From an uncultured delta proteobacterium (GTDB lineage Bacteria; Myxococcota_A; Polyangia; Polyangiales; Polyangiaceae), in the NCBI GenBank assembly GCA_963763745.1, contig CAVXQJ010000016.1:385029-449028 (forward strand): a stretch of DNA of 64,000 nt, read 5' to 3'. The translations under genes were made by a program, and so were the position numbers. Positions 1,335-61,481 of the stretch are shown piece by piece (positions within the stretch are counted from its first letter, which is position 1; every line of letters starts with the position of its first letter). The notes beneath the pieces are model-generated. The model was not told the origin of the DNA and searched no databases. It was given only the letters and a program-made list of their open reading frames with translations.

Positions 1335-3671
1335 GTTACGCAGCGGCTTGTTGTTCATCAGCATGTACTGCATGCGCTCTTGGCTCTTCGGCTCGCCGCA
1401 GAGGCTCACGAAGGCTTCGCGCTCGAGCTCCAGCATGTGCGTCCTCGGTGACTTCGTGGCTCGCGCCGCCGCGTCCGCCGCAGAAGACCTCGGCGAGCTT
1501 CACGCGCGATCTTCGCGTCGTGCTCGCTCGCGTAGCCGCCGGAGACGAGCGTCTTCACCATCATCTCGAGCGTCGCGATGCCGCTCTCGCCGGGGAGCAC
1601 GAACGCGCGCGGCGCTGGCGGGTGATAGCCGGTCTCCGCGAGGCCGATGGCGCGCGCCTTCGCTTCCGTCACGATGCGCGCTTGTCGAAGGCGATGCCGT
1701 CGTTGCGGCGGAAGTAGCCGAAGGCTTTTCCTTCTTCCGCGCTCGTCGCGACGCGCGCGAGCGCGATGTTCTTGAAGACCTGCGTGACGTACTCGTACGT
1801 GTTCACGTTCGCGCCGTCGGGGATGCCCTCGAGCGCGCGCCAGAGCATGTTCATGTTGCCTGCGCCGCCGGGGATGATGCCCGACGCCGACCTCGACGAG
1901 GCCCGCGTACGTCTCCGCCGCGGCGTGTACCGCGTCGCCCGCGAAGCACAGCTCGAGGCCGCCTCCGAGCGTCATCCCGAACGGCGCGACGACCACCGGA
2001 ACGCGCGCGTATTTCAGCCGCTGCGTCGCGCCTTGGTAACTTTTACCATGGTACGAATCTGCTCCCAGTTGCCCTGGGAAGCCGCCATGACGACGAGGAA
2101 CAAGTTCGCGCCGACGCAGAAGTGCTCGCCCTTGTTCGCGACGACGATCGCGCGGAAATCCTTTTCGGCGCGCGCGGCCGCGTCGTGGAGCATTTGGATC
2201 ACGTCGGGGTCGATGCTGTTCGCCTTCGTCTTGAACGTGACGCCGAGGACGCCGTCGCCGAGATCCCACGCTTCGGCGCCGTCGTTCGAGAGCACGGGCG
2301 CATTTCCTTTTTTCAAAATGTCGAACGTCGCGTTGCGCGGATCGATCGCACGCTTCACGTATTTGTTCGCGACGAGGTCGAACACCTCATCGCCTTTGTA
2401 GAAGCTCGTCGCGCCGCTCGCGCGCATCTTCTCGATCGACGGCGGGATCGAGATGCCGTCCTTCTTCATGCGGTCGAGCGTCTCGACGAAACCGAGCGCG
2501 TCCCACGTCTCGAACGGGCCGAGCTCCCAGTTGTATCCCCACTTCATCGCGTCATCGATCGCGACGACATCGCCCGCGATCTCAGGGATGCGACGCGCGG
2601 CATACGCGAGCGAGCGCGACGTGACCTTCCACGCAAACGCGCCGGCCTTGCCGGGATCCGGTGACGAGCTTCTTCACGCGCGCGCGCACATCCTCGATTT
2701 TTCCGATCGCCTTCGACGATTCTTTGATCGACGCATCGCCCCCCTTGCCGCGGTACTCGAGCCTGCGCGGGTCGAACGTCTGGATGTCTTTGCCTTGCTT
2801 CTTGTAGAAGCCGCCCTTCGTTTTGTTTCCGAGGAGCTTCTTGTCGGCCATCGCGCGGATGAAATCCGGGACCTTGAAGACGTCGCGCTCTTCGTCTTGC
2901 TCGAGCGCGGCGTAGCAGTTGTCTGCGACGTGGATGAACGTGTCGAGGCCGACGAGATCCGCGGTGCGGAAGCTCGCGCTCTTTGGGTGGCCCATCGGCT
3001 CGCCGGTGATCGCGTCGACGTCTTCGGGCTCGAGACCCGATGCGAGCATCTCGTGGATGCCGAGCATCATCGCGTGCGTGCCGATGCGGTTGCCGACGAA
3101 GTTCGGCGTGTCTTTGCCGAAGACGATGCCTTTCCCGAGCACGTCCTCGCCGAATTTCTTCGATGGCCGCGAGCGTCTCGGGTGCGGTCTCGGGACCGGC
3201 GACGAGCTCGAGCAGCTTCATGTAACGAACCGGGTTGAAGAAGTGCATCACGAGGAAGCGCTTTTTGAAGTCGTCCGAGCGTCCCTGCATCATGTCGTGG
3301 ATGCGAAGGCCGCTCGTGTTCGACGCGACGACGGCGTGCGCGGGGAGCGTCTTCTCGAGCTTCTCGAAGAGCGCGCGCTTCGGCTCGATCTTCTCGATGA
3401 TGGCCTCGATGACGAGATCGCAGTCGGAGAGCTTCGCGAGATCGCGATCGATGTTGCCCGTGGAGACGAGCAGCGCGCGCTCCTTCGAGAAGAACGCCGC
3501 GGGCCGCGCCTTCACCGCTTTTTCGAGCCCGCCCTTCGCGAAGTCTTCCATGTCGAGCATGACGACCTCGAGCCCCGCGTTCGCCATGTGCGCCGCGATC
3601 CCGCTGCCCATCACGCCCGCCCCGACCACGCCGACTTTACGCACCACGAGCTTGCTCATGGCCGTGGGCAT
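1335..3671 (-). pseudogene. fadB-like fatty-acid oxidation protein (N-terminal 3-hydroxyacyl-CoA dehydrogenase, C-terminal enoyl-CoA hydratase), broken by at least 5 frameshifts
   Basis: Segments recognisable in three reverse frames. 3671-3140: the NAD-binding domain (VGVVGAGVMGSGIA...FFNPVRYMKLLELV). 3142-2650: the HADH C-terminal domain (GKGIVFGKDTPNFVGNRI). 2547-2050, 2030-1873 and 1854-1669: the enoyl-CoA hydratase domain (KGEHFCVGANL; VVVAPFGMTLGGGLELCFAGD; MNMLWRALEG). 1690-1500: the hydratase C-terminus. Frame changes lie near 3140, 2650, 2550, 2040, 1870, 1690 and 1500. Confidence 0.55.
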
Positions 3672-3680
3672 ACTGGATAG

Positions 3681-60700: not shown

Positions 60701-61481
60701 CCTTCGCCATGACGACGTGCTCGCCCGGCGTCGCTTCGACGGTCGCCGCGATGCGATCGAACTCCATCGACGCATTCGAGTCTTCGTTCTTGCCGACGTC
60801 CGCGCCGTCGAACATCAAACGCGCTTGCCCCGTCGCCGCGAGGTGCAAAACAATCGGCCCCGCTTTCGCGAGCTCAACGCGCGAGCCGATGTACGAGCAG
60901 CTCTCTTTGCGCGGCTCGATGAACACGTCGAGCGGCGTGCCGCCCGCTTGCGAATACGACTCCGGCACTTCGCGCCACGCGACTTGCACCGTGCCCCACG
61001 AGTCGTCCTCTTTCGGATCGAACGGGGCGGCGCCCTTCGCTTCCGGACCTTCTTTGCGCACGAGCCCGCCGCCCGTGTCGCGAAACGGTCCGAGGATCGC
61101 CGTGTGCGTGAGCACGCCGAGCGCCACATCGGCCGCGATGCCTGCGGTCTCGCCTTCGTCGGGCGACATCGCGCGCTTCGTGAGCGCGGCTTCGTCGCGA
61201 ACCTCCTGTGCGATGGACGCTTGCGCCGCGATCGCCGCGAGCGCTTTCTCCGAAGCCCCGTCCGTGGCGCGCTCCGAGAGCGAAACGATCGTCGCGATGG
61301 CGCCGAGCACGGCGTGGTCCTGCGCGCCCGCCGTGAGCGCGCGTGCTTTGGCCGCGTCGATCATCGCGTCGGGAGTCACGTCGGTGTAGCGGACAACCGC
61401 CGCTGGTGCGCCTCGCGAAGTCGATGACGAGAGCGAGACACCCACCGCGACCACTCCGATCGCGACGTTCGAGAGCTTCAT
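57700..61481 (-). CDS. large secreted protein with a helical N-terminal region and a transglutaminase-like cysteine-protease core (DUF3857/TGase-like family). Intact from 61481 to about 59403, frameshifted below (coordinates approximate)
   Basis: Signal [27 protein letters not shown] (ATG rc at 61481). Track ORF 58251..59066 carries ...[26 protein letters not shown]... (TGase-like Cys core) and ...[17 protein letters not shown]... Confidence 0.5.

What the first reader, a model, noticed from the sequence alone, without database searches (positions are those of the whole stretch)
1335..61481. Clustered reading-frame breaks: sequencing or assembly error versus gene decay
Recognisable domains are split across frames in the fadB-like gene (at least 5 breaks, 1.3-3.7 kb), a Cys-rich lipoprotein paralog (22.82 kb), the SUKH gene N-terminus (23.65 kb), the kinase (34.8-36.5 kb), the methyltransferase (49.09 kb), and lolA, ruvC and yebC (50.4-52.5 kb). 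The two giant DUF3857/TGase-like genes (54-59.4 kb) are affected as well. In contrast, the 3.7-kb activase, 2.7-kb MVP, 2.3-kb DUF4132, 2.1-kb lipoprotein and 2-kb OPT genes are intact. Essential housekeeping genes (ruvC, lolA) are hit, so indel errors in GC-rich homopolymers are the parsimonious explanation for the 50-52 kb cluster. The fadB-like and kinase cases carry so many breaks that they could be genuine pseudogenes. This matters for every downstream interpretation of the window.
Basis: seen in the sequence. Interest (0 to 1): 0.5.

Follow-up and report, generated by a model that had tools for sequence, protein, structure and literature searches.

The report
Patchy single-base assembly errors breaking genes
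The broken reading frames are real in this sequence, but they are about 110 tiny insertion and deletion errors packed into a few poorly supported patches of a draft environmental genome assembly, not decaying genes.

Summary
In 48.6 kb of coding DNA checked against orthologues, the window carries about 114 frame-disrupting indels. In the same alignments, eight related Polyangiales loci each carry 0-3.

- **Per gene:** fadB-like 7, kinase 7, methylase 2-3, lolA 4, ruvC 5, yebC 6-8. The C-terminal third of the TGase-like gene has 17 and its upstream neighbour 66.
- **Clustering:** the variance/mean ratio is 6.2 (p about 1e-57). Patches start and end inside genes and run across gene borders. Runs of 9-20 kb have none.
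- **Spectrum:** nearly all events are 1-2 nt. Insertions outnumber deletions 70:22.
- **Context:** only 17 of 70 inserted bases match a neighbouring base, so this is not homopolymer slippage.

After frame repair there are no in-frame stops. The fadB-like gene is 88% identical to its best orthologue and the kinase 79-81%. Kinase motifs are intact, and private substitutions in fadB and yebC still sit mainly at third codon positions.

Verdict: technical consensus errors in patches of a long (607-kb) metagenome contig, most likely weakly supported long-read consensus. Gene decay is not supported, including for fadB and the kinase. This is a low-interest artefact, but every gene call in the dirty patches needs frame repair.

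The parts
1440..3161 (-). Sparse error patch inside the fadB-like gene (3-hydroxyacyl-CoA dehydrogenase/enoyl-CoA hydratase, 1335-3657). It holds 5 single-base insertions (G, C, A, G, G) and 2 single-base deletions.
   Evidence: The repaired gene is 88% identical to P0001 with no in-frame stops. The eleven assessable flanking genes at 4.7-14.6 kb, and the two small lipoprotein ORFs at 567-1331, are unbroken.
22815..22860 (+). An isolated -1 frameshift in the second Cys-rich lipoprotein gene (about 22150-23009).
   Evidence: The paralogue-conserved C-terminus (LCMPRKDCLQIGAILPGGLSC) lies in a different frame from the N-terminal 220 aa.
23640..23679 (-). A probable single +1 shift in the AAG-repeat, Lys-rich N-terminus of the SUKH-like gene (23022-23679). 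This one is uncertain, because an internal GTG start at 23507 needs no shift.
   Evidence: SMI1_KNR4, E = 9e-4, below the gathering score.
34901..34901 (-). A single-base insertion (G) 8 codons before the true stop of the Ser/Thr kinase.
36103..36400 (-). Dense error patch in the N-lobe of the Ser/Thr kinase. It holds six +1 events in 300 nt. The remaining 1.2 kb of the gene is clean.
   Evidence: The source assembly's own gene call is a truncated 434-aa protein (P0256).
48125..49090 (-). Two isolated events in the N6/N4 DNA methylase gene (48110-49322): a -1 at 49090 and a +1 at 48125. A possible 2-nt deletion at 49311 is less certain.
50544..50637 (-). A mini-patch of three single-base deletions in the C-terminal 40 codons of lolA.
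51141..52412 (-). A patch spanning the lolA N-terminus, all of ruvC, and yebC apart from its first 43 codons. It holds about 17 events.
   Evidence: It crosses two gene borders and ends inside yebC. The adjacent TerB-like gene (52549-53010) is clean.
54041..59445 (-). The main error patch. It holds 83 frame-disrupting indels across giant gene B (53869-57685, 66 events) and the C-terminal 45% of TGase-like gene A (57705-61424, 17 events). Density peaks at 24 per kb at 56-57 kb. A 700-nt clean island lies at 58284-59000.
   Evidence: The N-terminal 2 kb of gene A (59446-61424) has no events.
24438..33341 (+). Clean control block: the activase (1260 aa, 94% identical to its orthologue), a 616-aa gene and MVP (893 aa). 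No events.
   Evidence: The probability of no events at the uniform rate is 1e-9.

Best explanation
The frame breaks are technical errors in the deposited assembly. They are about 110 spurious 1-2-nt indels, three quarters of them insertions. They are confined to a handful of kilobase-scale patches that cover roughly 15% of the window.

The window comes from a 607-kb contig of an uncultured Polyangiales/Polyangiaceae genome. The most likely mechanism (inferred, not shown) is that the contig is a long-read consensus of a low-abundance organism. Where only one to a few reads support the consensus, or where polishing failed, near-raw-read errors survive. Well-supported stretches are essentially error-free.

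The encoded genes (fadB-like, kinase, methylase, lolA, ruvC, yebC and the two giant genes) are almost certainly intact in the organism.
For: 1. **Private to this assembly.** The window has 114 frame-disrupting indels. Each of eight related loci has 0-3 in the same alignments.
2. **Size spectrum.** There are 70 one-nt insertions, 22 one-nt deletions, 10 two-nt insertions and 6 two-nt deletions, and almost nothing longer. In-frame private indels occur at about the rate seen in relatives.
3. **No decay signature.**
   - There are no in-frame stops after repair in any gene.
   - The fadB-like gene is 88% and the kinase 79-81% identical to orthologues.
   - Private substitutions in fadB and yebC remain concentrated at third codon positions, as in relatives.
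4. **Patches ignore gene structure.** One runs from the lolA N-terminus through ruvC into yebC. One starts 170 nt inside gene B and ends at codon 689 of gene A. One covers only 300 nt of the kinase.
5. **Extreme clustering.** The variance/mean ratio is 6.2 with p about 1e-57. Clean runs of 8.8, 11.7 and 19.7 kb have probabilities of 1e-9 to 1e-20 under a uniform rate.
6. **Core and conserved genes hit together.** lolA, ruvC and yebC sit next to one another in a single patch.
7. **Present in the deposited record.** The public database holds a 434-aa truncated kinase and the identical MVP, both from one 607,100-bp contig. A contig of that length suggests long reads.
8. **Context-dependent insertions.** G follows C in 22 of 25 G insertions (Fisher p = 1.5e-8). 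That is what a basecaller or consensus artefact would give.
9. **Literature.** Indels in long-read consensus cause frameshifted gene calls, and low-coverage metagenome bins need polishing (PMC9262707; also PMC12007338).
Against: - No reads, coverage or assembly metadata are available, so the platform and the cause of the patchiness are inferred.
- The 3:1 insertion excess and the lack of homopolymer association do not match the residual Nanopore consensus error I would expect, which I recall as deletion-biased and homopolymer-linked (own knowledge).
- No conspecific genome was found for a direct base-by-base comparison. The best relatives are 80-88% identical at protein level.
- In the densest patch, private substitutions at codon positions 1 and 2 are about twice the clean-segment rate. 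That fits substitution errors or local misalignment, but relaxed selection would show the same thing.
Confidence: 0.92

Rival explanations
1. Genuine gene decay. The fadB-like gene and the kinase, or all the affected genes, are real pseudogenes that have accumulated frameshift mutations in the organism.
For: - Seven breaks each in fadB and the kinase.
- The fadB events lie only inside that gene.
- Myxobacterial genomes carry many kinase paralogues, so losing one is plausible (own knowledge).
Against: - No in-frame stops, and no indel longer than 2 nt in fadB.
- fadB is the best-conserved gene of its neighbourhood (88%) and shows a normal third-position bias in private substitutions.
- The kinase events are clumped, with 6 in 300 nt and 0 in the next 1.2 kb.
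- The same indel type hits lolA, ruvC and yebC, and 83 more fall across two adjacent genes.
- Patches cross gene borders.
- Spontaneous indels in bacteria are, as far as I know, deletion-biased (own knowledge); here insertions lead 3:1.
- All relatives keep the genes intact.
Confidence: 0.04
2. Homopolymer-length miscalls. These would be classic 454, Ion Torrent or older Nanopore errors in G/C runs.
For: A few deletions do sit in short runs: AAAA at 2044 and 52198, and TTTT at 50637.
Against: - 53 of 70 single-base insertions are not adjacent to an identical base.
- Run length after insertion is 1 in 48 and 2 in 14 of the first 64 scored.
- Insertions dominate.
- Homopolymer errors would be spread over the whole window, not confined to about 15% of it.
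Confidence: 0.03
3. A hybrid or partly polished mosaic. Accurate short-read-derived or short-read-polished stretches alternate with unpolished long-read stretches, either as gap fills or as places where short reads failed to map. This is a variant of the technical explanation rather than a true rival.
For: - Sharp kilobase-scale borders between dirty and essentially perfect sequence.
- The densest patch is the most GC-rich part of the window (0.72-0.74), where short-read coverage typically drops (own knowledge).
- Related MAGs in the same clade come from hybrid OPERA-MS assemblies.
Against: - The fadB patch has ordinary GC (0.63-0.66), while other GC-rich stretches (6-8 kb, 0.70) are clean.
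- There is no link to sequence conservation: the activase is 94% identical to its orthologue and clean.
- The source record name and assembly method could not be retrieved.
Confidence: 0.3
4. Programmed recoding. Under this reading, ribosomal frameshifting or transcriptional slippage reads through the shifts.
For: None beyond the existence of the frame changes.
Against: - Up to 66 shifts in one gene, in both directions.
- No shared slippery motif in the contexts.
- None of the shifts is conserved in any orthologue.
Confidence: 0.003

Closest known systems
Indel errors in long-read (Nanopore or PacBio CLR) consensus assemblies that fragment gene calls, as measured by IDEEL-type tests (Sereika et al. 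2022, PMC9262707; Kastor, PMC12007338)
   Same: - Single-base indels private to one assembly.
- Truncated or split gene calls; here the deposited assembly itself calls a 434-aa kinase fragment.
- The problem is worst in low-coverage metagenome bins.
- Comparison with orthologues repairs the genes.
   Different: - The errors here are not homopolymer-linked and are insertion-biased.
- They are extremely patchy: about 1.7% indels in one 3.8-kb gene and none over adjacent 10-20 kb.
- The platform could not be established.
Bacterial pseudogenes formed by frameshift during genome degradation (for example in host-restricted pathogens and symbionts)
   Same: Multiple frame breaks in recognisable genes.
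   Different: - No nonsense codons, no larger deletions and no insertion sequences.
- No relaxation of the codon-position substitution pattern in fadB or yebC.
- Core genes such as lolA are hit.
- The damage follows kilobase patches, not genes.
Unpolished long-read gap fills in hybrid metagenome assemblies (OPERA-MS type)
   Same: A mosaic of near-perfect and error-rich stretches with sharp borders. Relatives in this clade were assembled this way.
   Different: No evidence that this contig was built that way. There are no Ns or other junction marks, and GC or conservation do not predict the patches.

Membership tests
Sequencing/assembly indel artefact | The indels are private to this assembly and absent from orthologous loci. 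| tested here: met
   The window has 114 frame-disrupting indels. Each of L001, L003, L005, L006, L010, L012, L013 and L014 has 0-3.
Sequencing/assembly indel artefact | Events are 1-2 nt, and the reading frame and protein sequence are fully restored by removing them. | tested here: met
   108 of 123 private indels are 1-2 nt. Repaired proteins have no stops and are 63-88% identical to their orthologues, with the lowest values in the densest patches. The repaired kinase gives a full-length Pkinase match, and the methylase and TGase-core domains are recovered.
Sequencing/assembly indel artefact | The distribution follows assembly support rather than gene boundaries. | tested here: met
   Patches start and end inside genes and span gene borders. 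The variance/mean ratio is 6.2, p about 1e-57.
Sequencing/assembly indel artefact | Reads do not support the indels, or depth and quality are low at those sites. | not testable with these tools
   No reads or coverage data are available. The source record was not retrievable.
Homopolymer-length miscall errors | Events lie in runs of identical bases. | tested here: not met
   17 of 70 inserted bases equal a neighbour. Only 2 of the first 64 create runs of 3 or more.
Pseudogene (gene decay) | In-frame stop codons and larger deletions accompany the frameshifts. | tested here: not met
   No in-frame stops in any repaired gene. No frame-disrupting private indel longer than 2 nt outside gene B, where four are 4-11 nt.
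Pseudogene (gene decay) | Relaxed selection, seen as private substitutions spread evenly over codon positions. | tested here: not met
   - fadB: 0.038 / 0.028 / 0.169. yebC: 0.025 / 0.024 / 0.125. Both match the relatives.
- The pattern is flattened only in the densest error patch, where misalignment and substitution errors confound the measure.
Pseudogene (gene decay) | The damage is confined to, and spread along, the inactivated gene. | tested here: not met
   - Kinase: 6 events in 300 nt, then 0 in 1.2 kb.
- Gene A: 0 events in the first 2 kb, then 17 in the last 1.7 kb, continuing into gene B.
- fadB alone is compatible with this feature.
Programmed frameshifting / transcriptional slippage | A single conserved slippery site that is shared with orthologues. 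| tested here: not met
   Many sites per gene, in both directions, with heterogeneous contexts. None is present in orthologues.

The most novel reading that the evidence does not exclude
The indels could be real. Under this reading, the sampled population or template carries recent, localised bursts of untemplated single-base insertions in kilobase patches. A candidate cause is an error-prone repair or polymerase process acting on damaged DNA tracts. The bursts would be too recent for substitutions or stop codons to have accumulated. The result would be a non-viable or relic-DNA template captured by sequencing.
Probability: 0.02. Interest if true: 0.6.

Novelty: not a real feature. Interest (0 to 1): 0.1.

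Why it matters
The value is practical. About 15% of this window (1.4-3.2, 36.1-36.4, 50.5-52.4 and 54.0-59.4 kb, plus isolated sites) is unreliable at the base level.

- ORF calls, domain architectures, pseudogene counts, start and stop positions, and any 'novel small ORF' or 'split gene' reading in those stretches are artefacts until the frame is repaired.
- The rest of the window looks trustworthy.
- Automated pseudogene or completeness statistics for this MAG will be inflated by these errors.
- Homopolymer-aware correction would not fix it, because the errors are mostly non-homopolymer insertions.

Tried and rejected
1. **Dirty patches are the most conserved genes, so reads from co-occurring relatives cross-map.** Rejected. 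The activase is 94%, TetR 91% and the 616-aa gene 88% identical to orthologues, and all are clean. The poorly conserved N-terminus of gene B is dirty.
2. **GC content as the cause.** Only partly supported. The densest patch is the GC maximum (0.72-0.74). The fadB patch is 0.63-0.66, and the 0.70 stretch at 6-8 kb is clean.
3. **Strand effect.** All the dense patches lie in minus-strand genes, but many minus-strand genes are clean: P450, PAP2, Fer2, TerB, TetR and the gene A N-terminus.
4. **Using the 711-aa lipoprotein (19266-21401) as a paralogue reference for 21.4-23.2 kb.** The alignment score was negative, so it is not a paralogue. The adjacent 255-aa Cys-rich gene is the true paralogue.
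5. **Apparent frame switches from a codon-usage Viterbi pass** at 4.7, 6.8, 7.4, 8.2, 14.8, 15.8, 16.4, 17.8, 34.8 and 38.9 kb. These turned out to be ordinary gene boundaries.
6. **Exact-sequence look-ups to recover the source record and assembler name.** These failed, although the database holds identical proteins from a 607-kb contig.
7. **Uninformative alignments.** The thiolase alignment failed because only 169 codons lie in the window. The L008 yebC and ruvC comparisons failed because the genes are not syntenic there.
8. **No conspecific genome found.** The best MVP relative is 80% identical.
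Full report
**What the window is.** The window is 64 kb of about 65% GC DNA. Its genes are syntenic with metagenome-assembled Polyangiales/Polyangiaceae genomes.
- A TerB-like gene at 52549-53010 finds nine related loci in the genome collection, 58-84% identical.
- The fadB-like and kinase genes find further syntenic contigs.
- The source genome was not retrievable as DNA. 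The protein database holds a 100% identical MVP (P0121) and a truncated 434-aa version of the kinase (P0256). Both come from one 607,100-bp contig held by NCBI and ENA.
- The frameshifts are therefore in the deposited assembly, not introduced when the window was cut.

**Checking the observation.** I used three independent approaches.
1. A codon-usage Viterbi pass over the six frames, trained on long ORFs of the window.
2. A frameshift-aware protein-to-DNA dynamic programme, using intact orthologues from related loci.
3. Nucleotide multiple alignments of the window with two to four relatives, counting indels private to each sequence.

All three agree. Events per gene:

| Gene | Window position | Frame-disrupting events |
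|---|---|---|
| fadB-like | 1335-3657, minus | 7 single-base indels |
| Second Cys-rich lipoprotein | about 22.83 kb | one -1 shift |
| SUKH-like gene | about 23655 | one probable +1 shift in an AAG repeat; uncertain, since a GTG start at 23507 avoids it |
| Ser/Thr kinase | 34901 and 36103-36400 | 7, all +1 (six lie in the 300-nt stretch) |
| DNA methylase | 49090 and 48125 | 2 (possibly a third at 49311) |
| lolA | 50523-51175 | 4 |
| ruvC | 51278-51747 | 5 |
| yebC | 51795-52545 | 6, plus one short compensating pair |
| TGase-like gene A | events confined to 57729-59445 | 17 |
| Giant gene B | 53869-57685 | 66 |

In total there are about 114 frame-disrupting indels in 48.6 kb of coding DNA that could be assessed.

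The controls are clean.
- The same dynamic programme run on L003, L005, L006 and L008 gives 0-1 events per gene, even at 55% identity.
- Relatives show 0-3 private non-3n indels per gene in the same alignments.
- Thirty other genes of the window show none.

- Pkinase across the full domain.
- N6_N4_Mtase.
- Transglut_core.
- BcrAD_BadFG with DUF2229.
- DUF4132.

Precomputed Pfam hits on the fadB orthologues give 3HCDH and ECH. 'DUF3857' was not reproduced, even on intact orthologues.

**Distribution.** The events are extremely clustered.
- Per kilobase the counts are 4, 2, 1 at 1-3 kb.
- Further along they are 1 at 22 kb, 1 at 34 kb, 5 at 36 kb, 1 at 48 kb and 2 at 49 kb.
- They are 3, 7, 5 at 50-52 kb.
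- They are 12, 17, 24, 18, 7, 4 at 54-59 kb.
- They are zero elsewhere.
- In 500-nt bins the variance/mean ratio is 6.2, with dispersion p about 1e-57.
- Clean runs of 19.7, 8.8 and 11.7 kb have probabilities of 1e-20, 1e-9 and 1e-12 under a uniform rate.

Patch borders do not respect genes.
- One patch runs from the lolA N-terminus through ruvC to codon 43 of yebC. The TerB-like gene next to it is perfect.
- The largest patch begins 170 nt inside gene B, crosses into gene A, and stops at codon 689 of 1265.
- The kinase patch covers 300 nt of the N-lobe only.

**Spectrum.**
- Of 123 private indels, 70 are one-base insertions, 22 one-base deletions, 10 two-base insertions and 6 two-base deletions.
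- Insertions exceed deletions 70:22 (binomial p = 5e-7).
- Only 17 of 70 inserted bases equal a neighbouring base, and almost none create runs of 3 or more. The homopolymer mechanism does not hold.
- The inserted base depends on context. G follows C in 22 of 25 G insertions (Fisher p = 1.5e-8). After G the inserted base is C or A. The insertions therefore mimic the commonest dinucleotides of this genome.

**Error or decay?**
- After frame repair no gene has an in-frame stop.
- The repaired fadB-like gene is 88% identical over all 774 residues to its best orthologue. That is the highest value among 13 syntenic neighbours.
- The repaired kinase is 79-81% identical to its orthologues and keeps the HRD and DFG motifs.
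- At columns invariant in relatives, the window's private substitutions in fadB are 0.038 / 0.028 / 0.169 at codon positions 1, 2 and 3. In yebC they are 0.025 / 0.024 / 0.125. Both are indistinguishable from the relatives, so purifying selection has not been relaxed.
- Only the densest patch shows a flattened pattern, about 0.07 / 0.07 / 0.07-0.11. That fits added substitution errors and local misalignment around very frequent indels.
- A gene that had drifted long enough to collect 7-66 frameshifts should also carry many substitutions, stop codons and longer deletions. None are seen.
- As far as I know, spontaneous indels in bacteria are deletion-biased (own knowledge). Here insertions lead 3:1.
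- lolA, ruvC and yebC being hit together, next to perfect neighbours, points the same way.
- All relatives keep every one of these genes intact.

**Mechanism.** What is shown is that the indels are private, tiny, insertion-biased, context-dependent, patchy and independent of gene structure. The cause is inferred.
- The contig length (607 kb) suggests a long-read metagenome assembly.
- Close relatives in the same collections include Nanopore MAGs and hybrid OPERA-MS assemblies.
- In such data, stretches supported by only one to a few reads, or stretches that escaped polishing, keep near-raw-read error. Well-supported stretches are clean.
- Kilobase-scale patches covering about 15% of the sequence, with graded density (1 per 330 nt in fadB, 1 per 58 nt in gene B), are what fluctuating low depth would give.
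- The literature documents frameshifted gene calls from long-read consensus indels and the need to polish low-coverage bins (PMC9262707; also PMC12007338).
- I could not establish the platform. The insertion excess and the lack of homopolymer association do not match the Nanopore consensus residue I would expect (own knowledge).
- A hybrid or partly polished mosaic remains a live variant of the technical explanation.
- Neither conservation nor GC content explains the patches.

**Comparison with known things and verdict.** This is the well-known class of gene-fragmenting indel errors in draft long-read-type assemblies, in an unusually patchy and non-homopolymer form.
- It fails every tested criterion for pseudogenes, programmed frameshifting and homopolymer miscalls.
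- It is not a biological feature.
- The homopolymer mechanism, and the pseudogene option for fadB and the kinase, are not supported.
- Interest is low.

Noticed in passing
window 53050-53865 (+): An extra ORF of about 270 aa with no Pfam hit lies between the stop of giant gene B and the TerB-like gene. In L001, L003, L005 and L006 the TerB-like gene follows gene B directly. The ORF stays open to 54129, across the convergent gene, so its real stop may itself be masked by an indel.
   Followed up: partly
window 30660-33341 (+): An intact bacterial homologue of the eukaryotic major vault protein (PF17795 and PF11978). It has 440 homologues at E <= 1e-100. The named and closest hits come mostly from Polyangiales and other Myxococcota MAGs.
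   Followed up: no
window 567-998 (-) and 1002-1331 (-): Two tandem small Cys-rich lipoprotein genes lie between fadB and the thiolase. Relatives L010 and L012 have a single gene there, so this looks like a local duplication.
   Followed up: no
all single-base insertion sites, e.g. window 1440, 2659, 3161, 54068, 56852, 59001: Inserted bases follow the local dinucleotide pattern. G is inserted after C in 22 of 25 cases, and C or A after G. This could serve as a fingerprint of the basecaller or polisher that was used.
   Followed up: partly
L003 about 8718; L001 12101-12860: Related MAGs carry isolated frameshifts too. L003, a Nanopore MAG, has one in gene B. L001, an Illumina MAG, has a second lolA paralogue split across two frames.
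   Followed up: no
window 49330-49420 (-): The C-terminal tail of the 226-aa zinc-ribbon-like membrane protein is a Thr-Glu/Gly-Thr dipeptide repeat (TETETETE...GTESETE). The repeat also occurs in the L001 orthologue, and its length varies between relatives.
   Followed up: no
Only gene A has a Transglut_core domain, and gene B has no Pfam match at E <= 0.1.
   Followed up: yes
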